64,000 nt of DNA. Origin: a bacterium (GTDB lineage: Bacteria > Electryoneota > JAOADG01). Below are positions 51,968 to 59,659 of this stretch, in pieces. Under the pieces are notes generated by a model. It was not told the DNA's origin. It worked only from the letters and a program-made list of their open reading frames with translations, and did no database searches. A program made the translations under genes and the position numbers. Position 1 is the stretch's first letter, and the number at the start of each line of letters is the position of its first letter. The stretch covers positions 1,952,001 to 2,016,000 of the forward strand of contig OY820579.1 in assembly GCA_963681965.1 (NCBI GenBank). The letters are read 5' to 3'.

Positions 51968-52242
51968 TCACTGTTTCTGTTTTGAGAGGTGATACCGTCG
52001 TCACTAAGTTTTTGGTTAAGAACAATACACCTCTTTTATTTTGTGAGTTTAGAGTGTATTATTCTGTTAAGATAGTGTCGGTTTTTATGACACTTGGGTT
52101 GAGATGCATTCGGTTCGATACCTTCAATATAATTCTTGGATATCGACTACAAAATCGTCGTTAGAAATTTTTGATGGTATTTTGGGTCGTTTGGTGCGTA
52201 TTTCATTGTAAGGCGAGCCTTGAAATCTTGAAAGGAGTTAAC

Positions 52243-54918
52243 ATGAATATGCCACGAAGAGTACTGGCAATGGTCGCGGTACTCGCGTTGGTTGTCGCTG
52301 CGTTTGCTATTCGTAGCGTTGAACCGGGTAATAAACGGGAGTTGACAAAAATACTTCCGCGCGAACTACCCACATTGCCGAATCACATTTCCGTTCCTCC
52401 CACTCCAGTTGGACCCGTCCGGAGTACCGACGAGTTGAATTCTGCTTGGCAGATTGGAACGACTTATCTCGACTTTTTCACGTATGGCTCGCACAATCGG
52501 TTTCTTGCGCGAGATACGATGGGCGGGTTGCATGCCGCATGGATGAATGCCCGTGCCCCGAGTAACGGCGACCGCGTTGTCGCTTATAACTATCGTGAAC
52601 CGCCGGCTGGCGCATGGGCACTGGCTGGAGCCGGTATCGGTGGCGGAGCTGGGTTCTCTTCGATCGATGTATTGTCCGATGGTCGTGCTGTGATTGCTGC
52701 GCACAAACCTGTGCCGACAACCCCAACAGTACCCGGTGGATACTATACGTTCCTCGCGACCGACGAAGATTATCAGATTTCCGGTTTCAATCCGGTGCAA
52801 ACCCCGAATCCAACGACACTGCCAAACGATACAATTATTTGGCCGGTAATGTCCGTGGATCGTCAAAATCGTGCACAGATCATTTCTCGCGATATGGACG
52901 GTGGGCGTGGCATCCTCTACAACCGAATGTTTTATTCCCGGTCCGATAACAATCAACGCAATTTGTCGTCATTCTCGTATGCTTTCCGCGGTTTCCAGGC
53001 TTCCTACGGATCCGCAACCTCGCGCATTTCCGACAAGGTCGCCGTGGCATGGCCGCAGACTGCAATTCCCGGTGCCTACGAAGATCCGCACGGCTGGCGC
53101 GGTTTCTTAGTCCTTGACTATAACAACGACCTCTGGATATCACAGTCGACTGATGGTGGATCGACTTGGAATTTCGACGATACCCTGCACAACAATATCA
53201 CTAAATTTAAAGTGTGGAATTGGGATCGCTTTACACAGTCGGAAAACTTGGATACGCTTTGGGCGGCAGGCGACACTTTCCGTCACGTCAATGCCACTTC
53301 CATGGTGTACGATAACAACGATCACCTCCACATCGTATTCAACGTTGTGCGCTTTTACGAAGATTTAACTGTCGATACTACGGTTCGCCCGCGCGATGTG
53401 CCAGTGAAACGCGTCGGTTTTATGCCGACGTTGGTGTACCACTGGACCGATGCTGCACCCGACACCTTCAACATCGTTGCCGATGGATGGTGGTGGCCGG
53501 TAGTACTGGATAGCCGCGATCCACCGCGCTGGCGTCAGGAAACCCGTACAACGATCGATCGCATGAGTCTCTCGATTGCCACGAACAACGAACTGTATTG
53601 TGCATTCTCGATGTTCGGCAACACGAATTCCCATGTCGATACCAGTTCGAACGGATATGCAGTTAGCAATATTTGGGTCACGCACTCGGTAGATAACGGT
53701 ACCACTTGGTATTGGCCGACTCCAATTACCGATACGACCAATTCCAATGGCGCCGCTTCCGGTTCCGCACACAGCCGAATTTGGCCGTCGATGCCTGAAG
53801 TGATCGATAACGACTCATTGTACGTTATGTATATCGACGATCGTTCTGCCGGTTCGACTTGGATCGATGGCGGTACTTCGACCGATCCTTTATACAATGA
53901 CTGGACTTTGAATCCGGTGATCGTGCAGTCCGTGGCGAGAAGTGCAATTCGCAGCGACTCGACCTTGACCTATCCTGATTACCCGCCACTGCGTTCGCAG
54001 TATCGCTTCGACCCGAATGCGCCGATTCTCCGCATCACCGGACCGGCACCAGGATTGTATTTGAATTCACCGATCACATTCAACTGGATCTATCGACGAA
54101 TTGCCGATACCTCGCATGTCAAGTTGGAATTGAATCGCGATTATCCCAATGGCGAATGGGAATTGATCGACACACCATTGATTTCCGATACTACTTATTC
54201 CTGGCCATTCGAAGAAGAATACAATCTGCTTCGCGTACGGTTCCGGATTTCGCTACTCAGCAATCCGAATATCTCGGATGTCGTTTCCGAAGATGATGCC
54301 CCGCGCGATCTGTCGCTGGCAACAATTCGGTTGGTTTTTCCGACTAGCGCATATTTGACGAATCCGGTAACGTTGCAGTGGGATTATATCGATACGACTA
54401 CTAACGGCGATATTCGCACCACCGACACTGTCCGGATCGAAGTCATGCAAAATTATCCGAATGGCCAGTGGTCGCTGATCAACTCGGCGCCGATTACCAA
54501 CGACACGATGATGTGGCGATTCGATAATTCGTATTTGAATTCGAGTGTGAAGTTCCGGATTTCGATTCAGCGCGATCCGACGATTAACGACATCACGTGG
54601 CAAACATACAACGTCGTTGCCGGTGTGAATGAGAAGCCGCAAACGAATGTCGTTACGACTTACCAGTTGAAACCGGCATATCCGAATCCCTTCAATCCGT
54701 TTACCACGATCCGGTTTGCTATACCATTCCGCGATCGCGTGACATTGAAGGCATACGATATCACGGGTAAAGAAGTCGCCACGTTGGTCGACAACGTCTT
54801 CAATGCCGGTGAGCAGCGTATTACCTGGCGACCGAGTCGACTTGCCAGCGGGGTCTACTTTATCAAGATGTCAGCAGGTCATATCACCAAGACCGAAAAG
54901 GTCATCTTCATGAAGTAA
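52243..54918 (+). CDS. Secreted protein: BNR/Asp-box propeller-like domain, two Ig-like repeats, T9SS-type CTD
   Basis: ATG 52243 follows AAAGGAG; STDGGSTW and SVDNGTTW Asp-boxes; duplicated W.Y..V.(L/I)E...YPNG.W..FRIS; AYPNPFNP..ASGVYF. Confidence 0.82.
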   Translation: MNMPRRVLAMVAVLALVVAAFAIRSVEPGNKRELTKILPRELPTLPNHISVPPTPVGPVRSTDELNSAWQIGTTYLDFFTYGSHNRFLARDTMGGLHAAWMNARAPSNGDRVVAYNYREPPAGAWALAGAGIGGGAGFSSIDVLSDGRAVIAAHKPVPTTPTVPGGYYTFLATDEDYQISGFNPVQTPNPTTLPNDTIIWPVMSVDRQNRAQIISRDMDGGRGILYNRMFYSRSDNNQRNLSSFSYAFRGFQASYGSATSRISDKVAVAWPQTAIPGAYEDPHGWRGFLVLDYNNDLWISQSTDGGSTWNFDDTLHNNITKFKVWNWDRFTQSENLDTLWAAGDTFRHVNATSMVYDNNDHLHIVFNVVRFYEDLTVDTTVRPRDVPVKRVGFMPTLVYHWTDAAPDTFNIVADGWWWPVVLDSRDPPRWRQETRTTIDRMSLSIATNNELYCAFSMFGNTNSHVDTSSNGYAVSNIWVTHSVDNGTTWYWPTPITDTTNSNGAASGSAHSRIWPSMPEVIDNDSLYVMYIDDRSAGSTWIDGGTSTDPLYNDWTLNPVIVQSVARSAIRSDSTLTYPDYPPLRSQYRFDPNAPILRITGPAPGLYLNSPITFNWIYRRIADTSHVKLELNRDYPNGEWELIDTPLISDTTYSWPFEEEYNLLRVRFRISLLSNPNISDVVSEDDAPRDLSLATIRLVFPTSAYLTNPVTLQWDYIDTTTNGDIRTTDTVRIEVMQNYPNGQWSLINSAPITNDTMMWRFDNSYLNSSVKFRISIQRDPTINDITWQTYNVVAGVNEKPQTNVVTTYQLKPAYPNPFNPFTTIRFAIPFRDRVTLKAYDITGKEVATLVDNVFNAGEQRITWRPSRLASGVYFIKMSAGHITKTEKVIFMK

Positions 54919-54934
54919 GTAGTTTTCTGTTGAG

Positions 54935-54966
54935 AAAAGGCGCAGTGAAAGCTGCGCCTTTTTTTT
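54935..54966 (+). terminator. Intrinsic terminator
   Basis: AAAAGGCGCAG-tgaaag-CTGCGCCTTTTTTTT. Confidence 0.9.
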
Positions 54967-55012
54967 GTAAGTCGGTATTTAAGTATCTCTTGAAAATAAG
55001 CGGTTATCGGTA

Positions 55013-55348
55013 GTAGGGGCAGGTCCCTGTGCTTGCCCGATCTGTTATCTTTCTTTGAGTCTTGTATCTTGTATCCGGAAGTACTGCCGATCTCCGAATC
55101 GGCGATTCTCTTCTTTTCCGTAGGTCGGAATTTATTCCGACTCCTTCCTTTTTTAGTAGGGGGGGCATCCCCGCATGCCCCCGCTCTGGTATTTTTATTT
55201 ATTTTGTATCCCGGAGTAGGGGCGGGCTCCCACGCCCGCCCGATCTATTATCTTTCTTTGAGTCTTGTATCTTGTATCCGTTAGTACTGCCGATCTCCGA
55301 ATCGGCAAGACTCTTCTTTACCGTAGGTCAGAACTTGTTCTGACCACC
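55013..55348 (+). repeat. Left array of GTAG/GTAC-tagged REP-like hairpins, with a ~129-bp direct repeat (55013-55141 and 55216-55344)
   Basis: Tagged hairpins start at 55013, 55081, 55120, 55156, 55216, 55284 and 55323, all in the same orientation; repeat offset 203 bp. Confidence 0.85.
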
Positions 55349-55485
55349 TCCTGTGTCTCAAATTGAAAACAATTAACGCAGTCTAAAGCCTGTGGCTACA
55401 AATTTTCCTTTCACTCATCAAATTGCTTGTAAATACTCTCCATCCACATTATTATTGATATACCACCTGTCCGACCGGAGCTACT

Positions 55486-58116
55486 ATGACTTTCCGCCAT
55501 CGTCCTCTTCGCCAACGCCCGCTCGCATTCGCGACGATGCTTGTCTTCGCTCTGTCGATCCTTCTCCCGCAAATTTCTTACGCTGTCACGGTACAATCGA
55601 CGCGACTCCCACACCCATTCCAGTTTACGGAGAATAAGGGACAGTGGGATTCCGCCGTGGTGTATAAATGTGAGGTGCGGCGCGATGGCTTCACTTGGTT
55701 CCTCGAGCGCGATGGTGTCACCCTCGTCACCTCCATCATCGATTCTTCTTCTTTGGTAGGGGCGGTTCGCGAACCGCCCGTGTCCGTTAATGATGCACGA
55801 TTCGATCCCAATGGTCGTATCCATCATTCCCGTTTAAAATCTCACGCGCTCAAATTCAAATTCGTGCAACCATCCGGGGACACGGGCGGTTCGCGAACCG
55901 CCCCTACCATGAATGAATACGCATTCGCGAAATCGATTGATGCACAAGGTGAATTATCGTGGCACAATAATTATTTCTTGGGGAATGATTCCTTGAAGTG
56001 GGCACCGGATTGCCGGAACTTCACGCGCGTGGTGTATCATGATGTGTGGAACGGAATCGATGTCGAGTGGTATGAGAGTAAGGGACATCTCGAATTCGAT
56101 TTAGTAGTGCATCCCGGTGCCGATCCGAAACAGATTGCGATGGTGTGTGAGGGATTGGATGCGCCAATCGCAGGCGGAGGACGGACACTCTTGTCCGTCG
56201 GCTCAATAATTTCTGTCATAAAAAGGAGTCGGACAGGAGTGTCCGACCTCCACTTATCGAATGAACTTTCGCTTCCCACTTCCCTCGGCGAATTGCGAAT
56301 GAGAATTCCGGGAGCTTACCAAACCACTGCGAATGGCACCCGCGGAAACGCTGTCACGGCACAATTCAGACTCGTGTCAGAAAATCTCTTCGCGATCGAT
56401 TTGCCGAATGGGTATTATCCCTCGCAAACGCTCAGAATCGATCCACTGGTGTATAGTACGTATTTGGGAGGTGGTGGAAACGATTATGGAGATGGCATCG
56501 TCGATGACGGTAGTGGGGGAGTCATCGTTTGTGGATGCACAAATAGTTACGATTTTCCCGTCACGGTCGGAGCCATCGATGTTAGCTACAATGGCGCATC
56601 GGTAGGTACTGGCGACTGTTTCATCACAAGAGTGGACAGTACTTTTTCACAACTGATCTACAGTACTTTTCTCGGTGGACCGGGTGACGATCGCGCGGAA
56701 AGTATTGTCTCCGACGACTCTGGTAATTGCACGATCACCGGATATGCAGATTCACAATTCCCTACCACTATTAATGCATATCAAAGGTCATATAATGGGG
56801 GAAGGCGTGATTGTGTCGTTGCCCGTTTAAATAGCTCAGGCTCGCAATTGATATATAGTACTTGTCTCGGTGGTAACGGCTACGATGATGGACATAGCAT
56901 TCTGGCTGGTGATAGTGGAAGTGTCTTTATCGGAGGTTTTACTAATAGTCCGAATTTTCCGACCACTGAAGGCGCATACAACACGACCAGTTCTGGTGGA
57001 TTCGTCGTTCATGTAAACAATACCGGTTCTGGTCTGATCTATAGCACTTTTCTAGGTTATAGTCCGGAATTATGGTCGATTACATCAGATGGTTCGGGGG
57101 GAATACTTGCAACAGGAAGTGCGATCTCAGGACTATATACAACCCCCAATGCGTTCGATACGACTTTTAATGGTGGTGATTTGGATGCATTTGTACTACG
57201 CTTGAATTCGACCGGCTCGCAGTTGCTGTACAGTACTTATCTCGGTGGTTCCGGCGACCGTGAATGGGCAGTTGGGATTACAGGTGATGGAAACGGTAAC
57301 TGTTTTGTAACAGGTTCTACTACCAGTCCCAATTTTCCAATTACAGTCGGTGGGTTTGATACAGTCTATAACGGAGGCACCACAGTTATCGGTGATTGTT
57401 TTATTTCATATCTCAACAGCACTGGATCGAATCTTTTATACAGTACTTATCTCGGTGGTTCTGGTGAGGATGCAGGTAGGGGAATCCTGTACTATGCTGA
57501 TACTAGTGTTACCATTGTGGGGGGAACAAAGGGTACTGACTTTCCAACTACAATAGGCGCTTATTCAGAACACCTTAACGGTACAGGAAACTGTTTTGTA
57601 ACTCATCTTAAAGTCAATACATCTCGATTAATTTACAGCACGTATTTTGGTGGGACAGGCAGCGATGTCGCTTATGCATGTATGAAACACCATTCTGATG
57701 GAATCATTTTTACTGGTATTTGTGGATCGGGTTTTCCCACGACCCCAGAGGTTGGAGATACCAGTTACAACGGTGGTTCTGATGGCTTCATCGCGCGTTT
57801 GACACTTTTTCCGGACTCATCAGCCAGTACACCGGAACGATTCATACAACCATCCGGTTTCGCTTTGGCGCAGAATTACCCGAATCCCTTCAACTCCACC
57901 ACCTCACTCTCCTACACTCTCCCAATCTCATCTCACGTTGATCTTCGTCTCTACGACCTGATGGGGCGCGAAGTTACTACGCTGGTGCAACGCGAACAAA
58001 TTGCCGGAACCTATCGCGTGTTGCTCGATGGTTCGCGCTTGGCGAGTGGAACGTATTTTGTGCGATTGCAGGCGGGAGCGTTTGCGAAGACGCAGAAGAT
58101 TGTTCTATTAAAGTAA
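55486..58116 (+). CDS. Secreted SBBP-repeat protein with a T9SS-type CTD
   Basis: FTENKGQWD, PGADP, LRIDPLVYSTYLGG; repeated YST(Y/F)LGG..D..FP.T; NYPNPFNSTT..ASGTYF..KIVLLK; GGAG RBS. Confidence 0.88.
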   Translation: MTFRHRPLRQRPLAFATMLVFALSILLPQISYAVTVQSTRLPHPFQFTENKGQWDSAVVYKCEVRRDGFTWFLERDGVTLVTSIIDSSSLVGAVREPPVSVNDARFDPNGRIHHSRLKSHALKFKFVQPSGDTGGSRTAPTMNEYAFAKSIDAQGELSWHNNYFLGNDSLKWAPDCRNFTRVVYHDVWNGIDVEWYESKGHLEFDLVVHPGADPKQIAMVCEGLDAPIAGGGRTLLSVGSIISVIKRSRTGVSDLHLSNELSLPTSLGELRMRIPGAYQTTANGTRGNAVTAQFRLVSENLFAIDLPNGYYPSQTLRIDPLVYSTYLGGGGNDYGDGIVDDGSGGVIVCGCTNSYDFPVTVGAIDVSYNGASVGTGDCFITRVDSTFSQLIYSTFLGGPGDDRAESIVSDDSGNCTITGYADSQFPTTINAYQRSYNGGRRDCVVARLNSSGSQLIYSTCLGGNGYDDGHSILAGDSGSVFIGGFTNSPNFPTTEGAYNTTSSGGFVVHVNNTGSGLIYSTFLGYSPELWSITSDGSGGILATGSAISGLYTTPNAFDTTFNGGDLDAFVLRLNSTGSQLLYSTYLGGSGDREWAVGITGDGNGNCFVTGSTTSPNFPITVGGFDTVYNGGTTVIGDCFISYLNSTGSNLLYSTYLGGSGEDAGRGILYYADTSVTIVGGTKGTDFPTTIGAYSEHLNGTGNCFVTHLKVNTSRLIYSTYFGGTGSDVAYACMKHHSDGIIFTGICGSGFPTTPEVGDTSYNGGSDGFIARLTLFPDSSASTPERFIQPSGFALAQNYPNPFNSTTSLSYTLPISSHVDLRLYDLMGREVTTLVQREQIAGTYRVLLDGSRLASGTYFVRLQAGAFAKTQKIVLLK
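55754..55909. repeat. In-frame REP doublet inside the CDS (perfect 32-bp inverted repeat)
   Basis: TGGTAGGGGCGGTTCGCGAACCGCCCGTGTCC at 55754-55785 and its exact reverse complement at 55878-55909. Confidence 0.9.
56174..56253. repeat. Second in-frame REP doublet (GTGG-type) inside the CDS
   Basis: GCGGAGGACGGACACTCTTGTCCGTC (56174-56199) vs reverse complement of 56228-56253, GTGGAGGTCGGACACTCCTGTCCGAC. Confidence 0.75.
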
Positions 58117-58129
58117 TTCATATTGTGAA

Positions 58130-58480
58130 GTAGGGGCGGGCTCCCACGCCCGCCCGCATCTTCTTGGGTAGGGGCGGTTCGCGAACCGCCCGAAACGTGA
58201 TGTCTGAAAGACATCACGCGGATATAAAAATTTATCAATGAATGAATCCGGAAATATTTCTGCGTCATCAATGGATTAGGGCGGTTCGCGAACCGCCCCT
58301 ACCAAAAGATAGATTGCCACGTCCGACGCTTCGCGTCGTCCTCGCAACGACAGATCAGGATACAAGATTCAAGCGGTGGTCAGAACAAGTTCTGACCTAC
58401 GGAAAAGAAGAGACTCGCCCAATCGGAGTTGGGCACTACTACAAAAGATAAAATCACGCAGGCTCGGAGGCCTGCGCCAC
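58130..58480. repeat. Right array of REP-like hairpins, including a doublet at 58168-58302
   Basis: GTAG hairpins at 58130 and 58168 on +; inverted tagged hairpins ending at 58302, 58400, 58439 and 58480. Confidence 0.85.
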
Positions 58481-58588
58481 CAAGACGGAGTTGGACTGTA
58501 CTGATAGATCCCAAAAATCAGATCGCTGACTCGGTGTTCAGAGCTACCCCGTCAACTAGTCACTCGACTCGCACCAAAGATTGAGCCT

Positions 58589-58620
58589 AAAAAAAAGCCG
58601 ACTCTTTCGAGTCGGCTTTT
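58589..58620 (-). terminator. Terminator after tRNA-Gln
   Basis: AAAAAAAAGCCGACTC-tttc-GAGTCGGCTTTT. Confidence 0.85.
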
Positions 58621-58628
58621 CCTTTGGG

Positions 58629-58699
58629 CTGGGGGACAGGGATTCGAACCCCGATTAACAGATCCAGAGTCTGCGGTCCTACCGTTAGACGATCCCCCA
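58629..58699 (-). tRNA. tRNA-Gln, anticodon CTG (CCA not encoded)
   Basis: TGGGGGATCGTCTAACGGTAGGACCGCAGACTCTGGATCTGTTAATCGGGGTTCGAATCCCTGTCCCCCAG folds as a cloverleaf with GTTCGAA T-loop. Confidence 0.95.
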
Positions 58700-58807
58700 A
58701 AAGGGCATAACGTGATCGGGGATAAAGGTAGAATATTTTCGGGGCGGATTCAAGTCACGCCCGCTAAGCCCCGTTCTACCTGAGTTTGCTCCGAAAGCTC
58801 GGAGGGT

Positions 58808-59659
58808 CTACCCCTTCGGTGCGAAGTCTGCCGGGAATACCGACCGTAATATTGAATGCCCCTGTTCATGAAGTTGCGGTGCCGATGCCCAAATGCACCC
58901 CTGCTCTAATGGATCGTCGCCCTGCGCAAAGCTGCCGACGCGACCACCCGCTTCGCGCACAATGACGTCTCCAGCGGCGATATCCCAAGGCGATAAATTT
59001 AGTTCCCAATAGCCGTCCAGAACGCCTTGCGCGACCCAGCACAGATCCACTGATGCTGCCCCGCATCGCCGCATCGAACTCCCCGCCAGAAACAGTTTCC
59101 GCCATGCTTCGAGATATAAATCGGTGCAATTCTTGATCCGGAACGGAAAACCGGTTGCAAAAATCGCATCGCAAAAAGCGATCTCGCGATTCACTGAAAT
59201 CGGCTTCCCATTGCGCGTTGCCCCAAGTCCTTTTGCCGCACGATATAAATCGTTGCTCGCGGGATTGAATACTACGCCGGCAATCCGCTCACCGAATCGC
59301 TGCCCTGTCTTTTTCACTAAGCGACGATCCTCTAACCCGATCGATACTGCGAATACCGGCAAACCGCGTAAAAAATTTGTCGTACCGTCGAGTGGATCGA
59401 TGATCCAGCGATAATCGGCGCCGGAATCGATCGAATTCCCTTCTTCACCGAGAAAATCGAATGTTGGATATAATTCACGGAGCTGATTGAGGCAGAGCTG
59501 TTCCGTCTCTTTGTCGGCGATACTCACAAAATCGTGTGCTGCCTTGGTAACGATCTGCGCATCGGCGATCTTCCCGTAATACTGCATCAATAGCGCACCG
59601 GCATTGCGCGCCACGCCGGTCATATCTTCCAGGACTTGCTGTAAATCGAGTTCAGACAT
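58808..59659 (-). CDS. suhB: Inositol monophosphatase family protein
   Basis: GEE, WIIDPLDGTTNF, RRCGAASVDL, WDIAAG. Confidence 0.9.
   Translation of the reverse strand: MSELDLQQVLEDMTGVARNAGALLMQYYGKIADAQIVTKAAHDFVSIADKETEQLCLNQLRELYPTFDFLGEEGNSIDSGADYRWIIDPLDGTTNFLRGLPVFAVSIGLEDRRLVKKTGQRFGERIAGVVFNPASNDLYRAAKGLGATRNGKPISVNREIAFCDAIFATGFPFRIKNCTDLYLEAWRKLFLAGSSMRRCGAASVDLCWVAQGVLDGYWELNLSPWDIAAGDVIVREAGGRVGSFAQGDDPLEQGCIWASAPQLHEQGHSILRSVFPADFAPKG

What the first reader, a model, noticed from the sequence alone, without database searches (positions are those of the whole stretch)
55013..58480. REP-bounded cassette carrying a secreted SBBP gene instead of a RAYT transposase, next to tRNA-Gln
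Seen: the 876-aa SBBP gene is bracketed by about 13 GTAG/GTAC/GTGG-tagged hairpins of several different sequences. Left copies all face the gene and the outer right copies face back. 55283-55348 and 58375-58440 form a 66-bp inverted repeat (58/66 identical by hand, inner 28 bp identical). REP 55216-55241 is identical to 58130-58155. Comparable clusters were not seen elsewhere in the window. Known: GTAG-tagged REPs are substrates of IS200/IS605-related HUH transposases (RAYT/TnpA-REP) and normally flank the RAYT gene itself. Inference: this may be a non-autonomous REP-mediated cargo element that moves, amplifies or shuffles a secreted surface-protein gene using a RAYT supplied in trans.
Basis: partly seen in the sequence, partly recalled or inferred. 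Interest (0 to 1): 0.82.

Follow-up and report, generated by a model that had tools for sequence, protein, structure and literature searches.

The report
REP hairpins around and inside a surface-protein gene
The hairpin clusters are real, but they are ordinary genome-wide REP repeats that gather around one large family of secreted propeller proteins; unusually, they also sit in frame inside those genes and are read as extra protein loops.

Summary
In detail: 13-16 GTAG/GTAC/GTGG-tagged hairpins flank the 876-aa gene, with a 66-77-nt inverted repeat and an identical REP on both sides.

The mobile-cassette reading is only partly supported.
- The genome holds about 1,200 REPs in roughly 40 sequence families.
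- It has two RAYT genes, flanked by the S01- and S02-type REPs.
- The gene is one of about 26 DUF7948-SBBP-T9SS paralogs.
- REPs are enriched beside these paralogs, and 14 of 27 copies of the 66-nt arm lie next to them.
- Only 2 of 26 loci carry both arms. Homology boundaries vary, the closest paralog (89% nt) lacks the upstream arm, and no young copies exist.

- Genome-wide, 102 of 107 REPs lying deep inside ORFs are in this one family, up to 9 per ORF, at two loop hot spots.
- The hot spot stays in frame and stop-free in 20 of 24 loci, against 2-5.5% expected by chance.
- AlphaFold places the REP-coded stretches in low-confidence loops.
- Related genera show the same pattern with their own REP types.

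Intragenic REPs are already known (PMC3733652), so this is an extreme new variant of a known kind.

The parts
54934..54966 (+). Terminator-like hairpin with a T run, ending the upstream T9SS gene (52171-54918); left limit of the unit
   Evidence: I7
55010..55352 (+). Upstream REP array: seven tagged hairpins with their tags on the + strand (55010, 55081, 55120, 55156, 55216, 55284, 55323), organised as a 138-nt direct duplication (55012-55149 / 55215-55352, 84%)
   Evidence: (D2)
55283..55348 (+). Left 66-nt arm: a two-REP module (S24 GTAC hairpin plus S02 GTAG hairpin). 27 near-full copies genome-wide, 14 of them next to paralogs
   Evidence: (I1)
55486..58116 (+). 876-aa gene: signal peptide, DUF7948 domain (residues 47-226, split), SBBP beta-propeller repeats, T9SS C-terminal sorting domain. 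One of about 26 paralogs
55754..55785 (+). Intragenic S03 REP (GTAG at 55756). Read in frame as residues about 91-99, in hot spot 1a. It adds 24 nt relative to the REP-free paralogs
   Evidence: (I4)
55878..55909 (-). Intragenic S03 REP in inverted orientation, 100% complementary to 55754-55785. Read as residues about 134-141, in hot spot 1b. The 92 nt between the two arms encode the conserved beta-strand of residues 117-127
   Evidence: (I4)
56174..56253 (+). Intragenic S13/S15 hairpin pair (arms 56176-56197 / 56230-56251, 91% complementary). Read as residues about 230-256 in hot spot 2. This pair is specific to the gene family: 17 copies at 90-100% identity
   Evidence: (I10)
58130..58156 (+). 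S11 REP starting 14 nt after the stop codon, identical to 55216-55242. An S11 at this offset recurs in 8 of 26 paralog loci; S19 or S36 sits there in 4 more
   Evidence: (D4)
58164..58306 (+). REPIN-like doublet: two S03 REPs in inverted orientation (94% complementary) around a further hairpin at 58196-58218. The same doublet follows 5 other paralogs
   Evidence: (I5)
58307..58373 (+). Repeated non-REP module of the array. Copies of it occur inside the coding sequence of other paralogs
58375..58440 (-). Right 66-nt arm: S02 plus an S14 hairpin, tags on the minus strand, inverted relative to 55283-55348
   Evidence: (I1)
58457..58501 (-). S05 REP (GTGG tag on the minus strand) and a partial further copy
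   Evidence: (D12)
58589..58621 (.). Terminator-like hairpin flanked by A and T runs, lying between the array and tRNA-Gln; right limit of the unit
   Evidence: I7, I13
58625..58700 (-). tRNA-Gln (CTG). Synteny with relatives holds to its right and breaks to its left

Best explanation
The locus is an ordinary chromosomal gene with REP-rich untranslated flanks. It is not a transposable cassette.

Setting. The gene is one of about 26 paralogs encoding secreted proteins with a DUF7948 domain, an SBBP beta-propeller and a T9SS sorting domain. The genome carries about 1,200 RAYT-type REPs in mosaic (BIME-like) arrays.

The arms. The two 'arms' are copies of a common two-REP module. REP arrays in this genome gather downstream of T9SS cargo genes, and most strongly around this family.

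REPs inside the genes. REPs have repeatedly entered two or three loop-coding sites of the DUF7948 domain. Only in-frame, stop-free arrays survive, and they are translated as extra, probably disordered, surface loops.

What is shown: the REP catalogue, the RAYTs, the enrichment beside paralogs, the in-frame arrays, their position in predicted loops, and the recurrence in related genera.

What is inferred:
- The flank arrays are transcribed as UTRs up to the terminator at about 58600 and act like other REPs, on mRNA 3' end stability or termination.
- REPs spread among paralogs by RAYT-dependent insertion next to existing REPs and by recombination or gene conversion between the conserved 5' and 3' gene ends.
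- The inserts are tolerated passengers rather than a designed function.
For: REP-rich genome:
- 1,279 blast-defined hairpin repeats, of which 1,196 remain after dropping non-REP seeds. 999 are fully intergenic.

RAYTs:
- Two ORFs of about 160 aa carry the HUH and Y motifs. They match Pfam Y1_Tnp at 30.3 and 26.8 bits (cut-off 23) and NF047646 at 94.3 and 78.9 bits (cut-off 80).
- One is flanked by four S02 REPs and the other by an S01-like pair.

The arm is a common module:
- There are 27 near-full copies.

No fixed ends:
- 2 of 26 loci have both arms, and flank homology is mosaic.

Enrichment is graded, not exclusive:
- A REP lies within 200 nt downstream of 210 of 2466 other genes, 50 of 175 other T9SS genes, and 18 of 26 paralog loci.

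The family is old:
- Median four-fold-site identity among 18 paralogs is 0.35 in the centre and 0.52-0.65 in the N-terminal blocks.

Intragenic REPs:
- 102 of 107 REPs lying at least 150 nt inside ORFs of at least 250 aa are in this family.
- At hot spot 1a the REP-free form is 87 nt. Other paralogs are +24, +27, +42, +90 and +171 nt, with different REP types.
- The hot spot 1 span is 231-696 nt, and it is in frame and stop-free in 20 of 24 loci.
- Random pieces of intergenic arrays, 273-465 nt long, are stop-free in a given frame only 2-5.5% of the time.
- Distant DUF7948 homologs lack the hot spot 2 insert.
- AlphaFold2 (mean pLDDT 80.6) gives pLDDT below 50 exactly at residues 90-113, 133-142 and 233-257, between confident strands.

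Same pattern in relatives:
- Paralogs of G001 and G003 have open ORFs of 893-1118 aa running through hairpins of their own REP types.
- In other families of the phylum the domain mostly matches the Pfam model in one piece.
Against: - The association with this one family is much stronger than passive tolerance would predict: 102 of 107 deep intragenic REPs, and 14 of 27 arm copies.
- The S02 REP at both ends is the cognate type of one RAYT.
- The S13/S15 pair is 90-100% identical across 17 copies, whereas four-fold sites in the neighbouring blocks are only 0.60-0.65 identical. This suggests a constraint or homogenisation that this reading does not explain.
- The gene sits at a synteny break.
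- Transcription, translation and REP function were not tested. My gene calls are a home-made ORF and codon-usage caller.
Confidence: 0.65

Rival explanations
1. One reading: a non-autonomous cargo element whose two inverted REP modules are recognised by a RAYT supplied in trans, which moves or copies the SBBP gene.
For: - S02 REPs in inverted orientation bound the gene, and four S02 REPs flank RAYT-2.
- The module recurs beside paralogs, 14 of 27 copies. Upstream copies run in the gene's orientation at about -203/-165, and downstream copies are inverted at about +260 to +350.
- One other paralog (genome 204389-207295) has both arms.
- The gene is multi-copy and not syntenic in G001, G002 or G003.
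Against: - Only 2 of 26 loci have both arms, and 15 of 26 have no upstream REP.
- Homology boundaries differ between loci, and the closest paralog shares no upstream flank.
- The closest paralog is 89% identical at nucleotide level, and there are no near-identical copies.
- At RAYT-2 each side carries a convergent REP pair. At the gene each arm is a direct S24+S02 doublet with the tags outermost.
- No arm-to-arm or empty-site contig with more than 35 nt on both sides was found.
- From recall, not tested here: no RAYT has been shown to move cargo, and IS200/IS605 transposition uses both end hairpins on one strand.
Confidence: 0.08
2. The REP arrays are used, not merely tolerated. In-frame gain, loss and exchange of REP modules would diversify exposed loops of a secreted protein family. 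Alternatively, the strong intragenic hairpins would regulate its mRNA. Either would be a selected variation or control system linked to the RAYTs.
For: - Deep intragenic REPs are almost exclusive to this family (102 of 107).
- The hot spots are the same in three genera, with genus-specific REP types.
- Hot spot 1 differs between fairly close paralogs: 255 nt against 375 nt at 87% nucleotide identity.
- Frame is preserved far above chance.
- The S13/S15 pair is more conserved than neighbouring four-fold sites.
- Predicted RNA hairpins are very stable: -91.6 kcal/mol (z -11.6) and -45.3 kcal/mol (z -7.2).
Against: - Purifying selection against broken genes alone explains the open frames, and 4 of 24 loci are in fact broken at hot spot 1.
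- The REP-coded stretches are predicted to be disordered, not a folded feature.
- Each REP type is read in one frame only, and S01 sits at one homologous site in 12 of 12 cases. This fits inheritance plus recombination rather than frequent new insertion.
- There are no within-population data.
Confidence: 0.2
3. Artefact: the intragenic REPs are not really coding, because the ORFs are pseudogenes, mis-called fusions or assembly errors at repeats.
For: - Gene calls are home-made.
- 4 of 24 loci are broken at hot spot 1.
- Short-read contigs collapse at these repeats.
Against: - The genome is a single 4.24-Mb contig without N.
- Signal peptide, both halves of DUF7948, the propeller and the sorting domain lie in one frame.
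- All 18 ORFs that I had pre-selected as intact translate without an internal stop, so that count is not an independent test.
- The same proteins, with the same Pfam domains, are in the public protein collection as full-length calls.
- Independent assemblies G001 and G003 show the same thing.
Confidence: 0.03

Closest known systems
GTAG-tagged REPs, BIMEs, REPINs and their RAYT transposases (REPtrons)
   Same: - Short GC-rich imperfect palindromes with a 5' GTAG/GTAC/GTGG tag, in many sequence families and hundreds of copies.
- Mostly intergenic and close to gene 3' ends, in mosaic arrays and inverted doublets.
- RAYT genes flanked by their cognate REPs. Compare the passages read in PMC3733652.
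   Different: - Here a two-REP module brackets a cargo-like gene, and a tenth of all REPs lie inside coding sequence of one gene family.
- By the T9SS content the host is outside the well-studied proteobacterial examples; I did not name the taxon.
Intragenic REPs described by Di Nocera et al. 2013 (PMC3733652)
   Same: GTAG REPs, as singles, dimers and clusters, inserted in frame in genes that still look functional. The passages read report inserts of 20-30 aa and clusters of 43-82 aa.
   Different: - There the hosts are scattered, unrelated genes, many of them in DNA repair.
- Here the REPs are concentrated in one paralogous secreted-protein family: 102 of 107, up to 9 REPs per ORF.
- The hot spot 1 span reaches 696 nt, against 231 nt in the shortest paralog (which still holds one S01 REP).
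- The sites are recurrent loop positions shared across genera.
- Their Additional file 3, which lists the ORFs, could not be opened.
Rickettsia palindromic elements (RPE)
   Same: Palindromic repeats inserted in frame into ORFs, thought to add surface peptide segments without destroying the protein. This is my recall, and it is also cited in the passages read.
   Different: - RPEs are longer elements spread over many unrelated genes of a reduced genome.
- No RAYT link is established for most of them.
IS200/IS605-derived non-autonomous elements (PATEs, MITE-like)
   Same: Hairpin-ended DNA that a Y1 HUH transposase could act on in trans.
   Different: No defined common ends, no identical copies and no shared insertion target were found for the gene-carrying interval.

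Membership tests
REP (GTAG-tagged repetitive extragenic palindrome) | Imperfect palindrome of 20-40 nt with a conserved tetranucleotide tag at one end | tested here: met
   Family consensuses show GTAG, GTAC or GTGG directly 5' of stems of 7-11 bp
REP (GTAG-tagged repetitive extragenic palindrome) | High copy number, mostly extragenic | tested here: met
   1,196 copies, of which 999 are fully intergenic and 174 are inside my gene calls. The top families have 84-95 copies each
REP (GTAG-tagged repetitive extragenic palindrome) | A cognate RAYT gene flanked by the same REP | tested here: met
   RAYT-2 is flanked by four S02 REPs and RAYT-1 by an S01-like inverted pair. The GC-rich GTAGGGGCG families have no flanked RAYT in this genome
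RAYT (REP-associated tyrosine transposase) | Y1 HUH fold with the HUH and catalytic Tyr motifs, scoring above the family cut-off | tested here: met
   NF047646 scores 94.3 bits (cut-off 80) for genome 529651-530124 and 78.9 bits, just below cut-off, for 526633-527121. Pfam Y1_Tnp scores 30.3 and 26.8 bits (cut-off 23). The HVH and Y..NPV motifs are visible
REPIN (REP doublet) | Two REPs in inverted orientation, able to form one long hairpin, repeated as a unit | tested here: met
   58164-58306 is 94% complementary between its arms. Copies at 83-96% over the full length occur at 3 other sites. The same S03 pair follows 5 other paralogs
BIME-like mosaic array | Regular arrays of different REP types with conserved linker modules | tested here: met
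   A 138-nt three-REP unit is duplicated upstream. The orders S05-S24-S02 and S11-S03-S03-S02-S14-S05 recur. Binding of IHF or gyrase cannot be tested here
Non-autonomous transposable element carrying cargo | The same two ends at every copy, with homology stopping at those ends | tested here: not met
   2 of 26 loci have both arms, and the boundaries vary
Non-autonomous transposable element carrying cargo | Recent copies, or filled versus empty sites | tested here: not met
   The closest copy is 89% identical at nucleotide level. Relatives are too distant to show an empty site: G001, in the same genus, aligns at only about 76% nucleotide identity on the flanking gene. Contig junctions were unusable
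In-frame palindromic insertions (RPE-like, intragenic REP) | The insert keeps the frame and lies between conserved structural elements of a recognisable domain | tested here: met
In-frame palindromic insertions (RPE-like, intragenic REP) | The decorated protein is made | not testable with these tools
   No RNA holder was listed, and no proteomics is available
DUF7948-SBBP T9SS cargo protein | Pfam DUF7948, SBBP repeat and Por_Secre_tail all above their cut-offs | tested here: met
   138.1, 43.5 and 37.2 bits; TIGR04183 at 42.8 bits

The most novel reading that the evidence does not exclude
The RAYT/REP system acts on coding DNA in this lineage. REP modules are inserted, lost and exchanged in frame at two or three loop hot spots of a family of about 26 T9SS-secreted propeller proteins. 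This would work as a REP-based generator of surface-loop diversity. The shared REP modules at the gene ends would be the joints through which whole genes, or their variable propeller cores, are exchanged between loci.
Probability: 0.15. Interest if true: 0.85.

Novelty: new variant of a known kind. Interest (0 to 1): 0.6.

Why it matters
REPs are by name extragenic, and what they do for the host is still debated. Here about a tenth of a genome's REPs are translated. Nearly all of those sit in one secreted-protein family, at the same loop positions in three genera, and selection visibly keeps them in frame.

That gives a natural system for three questions:
- Where and how REPs insert: the REP-free and REP-filled forms of the same site sit side by side in one genome.
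- How much foreign peptide a beta-sandwich loop tolerates.
- Whether a domesticated transposase can drive protein variation.

It also warns annotators that DUF7948 domains in this lineage are split by repeat-coded inserts, and that short-read assemblies break at these genes.

Tried and rejected
- Excision or inversion junctions. I laid Logan contigs of four runs (X1, X2, X3, X5) on 54500-59000. The contigs break at the repeats. The listed joints have 20-34 nt on the shorter side and match other REP arrays, so they say nothing about excision. No piece spans the stretch.
- Expression. No RNA holder was listed, so this gives no evidence either way.
- Empty site in relatives. G001, G002 and G003 keep the genes to the right of tRNA-Gln. 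To its left they carry orthologs of genome 3.581-3.585 Mb (G001, G003) or 3.337-3.347 Mb (G002). They are too diverged and rearranged to serve as an empty site.
- Promoter and terminator scan of 54800-58800. It found 4 promoter-like sites against 5.1 expected. The terminator-like hits are mostly the REPs themselves, so the scan was not used.
- Frame-use test for independent insertions. Each REP type is read in a single frame, so the test could not show independent events.
- Gene conversion. Four-fold-site identity is higher at the gene ends than in the centre (0.52-0.65 against 0.35). That fits partial homogenisation, but it is not recent enough to prove it.
- Literature. Four searches found no report of REPs concentrated in a T9SS or SBBP paralog family. 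Only PMC3733652 was read, as passages, and its supplements are closed. All other titles were seen only as search listings.
- From recall only: the REPIN concept, the in-vitro activity of TnpA-REP, and REPs near stop codons affecting translation.

Full report
**Observation.**
- Between the terminator of the upstream gene (54934-54966) and a second terminator-like hairpin next to tRNA-Gln (58589-58621; tRNA at 58625-58700, minus strand) lies one long ORF, 55486-58116.
- Seven tagged hairpins with their tag on the plus strand, plus one degenerate copy, lie upstream. Six to eight lie downstream, the outer ones with the tag on the minus strand.
- The 66-nt arms extend to 77 nt at 84% complementarity (I1).
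- The REP at 55216-55242 is identical to the one at 58130-58156 (D4).
- The upstream block is itself a 138-nt direct duplication (D2).
- All 18 catalogue REPs of the 64-kb window lie in this locus.

**The gene.** The product is 876 aa with four parts: a signal peptide, DUF7948 (138.1 bits, matched in two stretches), SBBP beta-propeller repeats, and a T9SS type A sorting domain. A tblastn search of the genome finds about 26 loci that align over most of the protein. It also finds 200 hits to the C-terminal sorting domain alone, so T9SS cargo genes are very numerous here.

**The repeats genome-wide.**
- The window lies in a single 4,244,867-base contig.
- A hairpin scan followed by blast extension gives 1,279 repeated hairpins from 52 seeds.
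- After dropping seeds that are parts of longer repeats, 1,196 remain. Most carry GTAG, some GTAC or GTGG, directly 5' of the stem.
- Two ORFs of about 160 aa, at genome 526633-527121 and 529651-530124, are RAYTs. They have the HUH and Y motifs and match Pfam Y1_Tnp above its cut-off. NF047646 scores 94.3 and 78.9 bits against a cut-off of 80.
- The second RAYT is flanked by four S02 REPs, the type that forms the inner half of both arms in the window. The first is flanked by an S01-like inverted pair.

**Is it a cassette? Points in favour.**
- REPs are strongly clumped: only 284 of 1907 intergenic regions hold any.
- Regions next to a paralog hold REPs in 31 of 56 cases, against 253 of 1851 elsewhere.
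- Of 27 near-full copies of the 66-nt arm, 14 lie next to paralogs. Upstream copies run in the gene's orientation, and downstream copies are inverted.
- One other paralog has both arms.
- The gene is not next to tRNA-Gln in G001, G002 or G003.

**Is it a cassette? Points against.**
- Only 2 of 26 loci have both arms. 15 of 26 have no upstream REP within 700 nt, and 8 of 26 have none downstream.
- Nucleotide homology between loci is mosaic. The 5' 1 kb and the 3' 300 nt are 75-91% identical, and the propeller core is often unalignable. The points where flank homology starts and stops differ from locus to locus.
- The closest paralog (89%) aligns only from 55581, inside the coding sequence, and has no upstream REP.
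- There are no young copies. Median identity at four-fold sites among 18 intact paralogs is 0.35 in the core and 0.52-0.65 in the N-terminal blocks.
- The 29 largest REP arrays of the genome (8-33 REPs) are not next to paralogs.
- Other T9SS genes are also enriched for a REP within 200 nt downstream: 50 of 175, against 210 of 2466 for the rest. In that call the 'paralog' class counts 33 gene calls, including fragments. By locus the figure is 18 of 26.
- Contigs of four public runs gave no usable junction.
- I therefore read the arms as copies of a common module of the local REP arrays, not as transposon ends.

- Two perfect 32-nt inverted arms (55754-55785 and 55878-55909, type S03) and a second hairpin pair (56176-56197 / 56230-56251, types S13 and S15) lie in the coding sequence.
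- With my rough gene calls, 174 of 1,196 REPs lie inside called genes.
- I then restricted the count to ORFs of at least 250 aa and to REPs at least 150 nt from the start and 30 nt from the end. Under those limits, 102 of 107 are in the DUF7948 paralogs and 5 are in three other ORFs, out of 1,934 ORFs examined.
- 24 of 26 paralog loci contain at least one REP, up to nine per ORF.
- Of the 120 REPs in these loci, 35 are S13/S15 and 6 are S49. These types occur essentially only in this family.
- The rest belong to families that are mainly intergenic, for example S01 (16 of 90), S05 (11 of 95) and S03 (9 of 84).

**Anatomy of the inserts.** An alignment of 18 intact paralogs shows highly conserved blocks interrupted at two places.
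- *Hot spot 1* lies on both sides of a conserved beta-strand (residues 117-127 of the window protein). *Hot spot 2* lies in a hairpin turn further on.
- At hot spot 1a, two paralogs have a REP-free form of 87 nt. Others carry +24 nt (one S03; the window gene), +27 (one S21), +27 (another module), +42 (an S03 with a nested insert), +90 (four REPs) or +171 nt.
- The whole hot spot 1 span runs from 231 to 696 nt. It is in frame and stop-free in 20 of 24 loci, and four are broken there by a frameshift, a stop or a 1.8-kb insertion.
- Random pieces of intergenic REP arrays of 273-465 nt are stop-free in a given frame in only 2-5.5% of draws. Selection is therefore keeping these arrays readable.
- Modules of the window's downstream intergenic array recur inside the coding sequence of other paralogs. 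Intragenic and intergenic arrays are the same material.
- Aligned with distant DUF7948 proteins, the hot spot 2 insert (about 26 aa) is absent from 9 of the 12 non-self homologs shown. The other three carry their own inserts there, one of them with a REP-like peptide.

**Structure.** AlphaFold2 on a 57-sequence alignment gives mean pLDDT 80.6 and pTM 0.58. Apart from the N-terminus and the linker before the sorting domain, the main low-confidence segments are 90-113, 133-142 and 233-257; two further short dips fall at 165-168 and 320-322. The three main segments are the REP-coded stretches, lying between confident strands. As RNA, the two intragenic pairs would form very stable long-range hairpins: -91.6 kcal/mol (z -11.6) and -45.3 kcal/mol (z -7.2).

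**Relatives.**
- G001 (same genus) and G003 (same family) have 27 and 38 DUF7948 matches, mostly split at the same model positions (about 74-80 and about 148-152).
- Their ORFs are open for 893-1118 aa through hairpins of their own REP types. They have RAYT matches too.
- In seven genomes of two other families of the phylum, the domain mostly matches the Pfam model 1-214 in one piece. The exceptions are two split copies in G014 and one in G018. This holds even in G030, which has 26 REPs of the GTAGGGGCG type.
- 21 of the 31 genomes searched have no DUF7948 match.
- Among those searched, the colonisation of this domain is thus specific to the window's own family, and it goes with the expansion in copy number.

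[quoted passage not shown] They are mostly in unrelated genes, often DNA repair genes, with inserts of 20-30 aa and clusters of 43-82 aa, and the Rickettsia RPEs are the classic in-frame case (PMC3733652, passages read; its supplementary list could not be opened). Four literature searches found nothing on REPs concentrated in a secreted paralog family. The present case is therefore a new and extreme variant of a known kind, not a new kind.

**Verdict.** The cargo-transposon reading is only partly supported, and I rate it at about 0.08. The best explanation, at about 0.65, is a paralogous T9SS gene whose flanks and loop-coding sites have been colonised by ordinary RAYT-type REP arrays, with selection keeping the intragenic arrays in frame. 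A functional role in loop diversification or mRNA control remains open, at about 0.2.

Noticed in passing
genome-wide (for example G000:C1:3808159-3810780, 4197468-4198785): About 200 genes end in a T9SS type A sorting domain. The biggest REP arrays (up to 33 REPs in 2.4 kb) often start right after such gene ends.
   Followed up: partly
window 56174-56253, plus 16 other paralogs: The S13/S15 hairpin pair occurs essentially only inside this gene family and is 90-100% identical over 87 nt in 17 copies. That is more conserved than four-fold sites in the neighbouring coding blocks (0.60-0.65), and it is unexplained.
   Followed up: partly
window 55754-55909: Two perfectly complementary 32-nt REP arms enclose the 92 nt that encode a conserved beta-strand, so a REPIN-like hairpin has real coding sequence as its loop (-91.6 kcal/mol as RNA).
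   Followed up: partly
window 52171-54918: The upstream gene is another T9SS cargo protein (915 aa, with only the sorting domain recognised). It has paralogs clustered at G000:C1:3816-3831 kb.
   Followed up: no
G000:C1:1280416-1281411 and five other sites: Six ORFs of 331 aa with identical length and coding score, each carrying the same internal hairpin (seed S32). This is probably an insertion-sequence family, and I excluded it from the REP counts.
   Followed up: no
window 58625-58700 and flanks: Gene order is conserved to the right of tRNA-Gln in G001, G002 and G003 but not to the left. In G001 and G003 the left neighbours are orthologs of G000 3.581-3.585 Mb, so the SBBP gene and its upstream neighbour sit at a rearrangement breakpoint.
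   Followed up: partly
L019 (G003:C86) and L021 (G003:C44): G003 paralogs carry, beside REP-coded peptides, short tandem peptide repeats (a 7-aa K/G/E-rich unit and a roughly 14-aa H/P/T-rich unit) in hot spot 1, within open ORFs of 1114 and 1118 aa.
   Followed up: no
window 56456 to 57870: One contig in each of runs X1 and X2 joins the end of the conserved N-terminal block to the start of the sorting-domain block, skipping 1413 nt (34 nt on the shorter side). It may be another paralog or a copy without a propeller.
   Followed up: no
G030, G006, G016 (same phylum, other families): Stretches of 28-33 nt identical or nearly identical to the window's S03 REP core occur in distant genomes, so this REP type is shared well beyond the genus.
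   Followed up: partly
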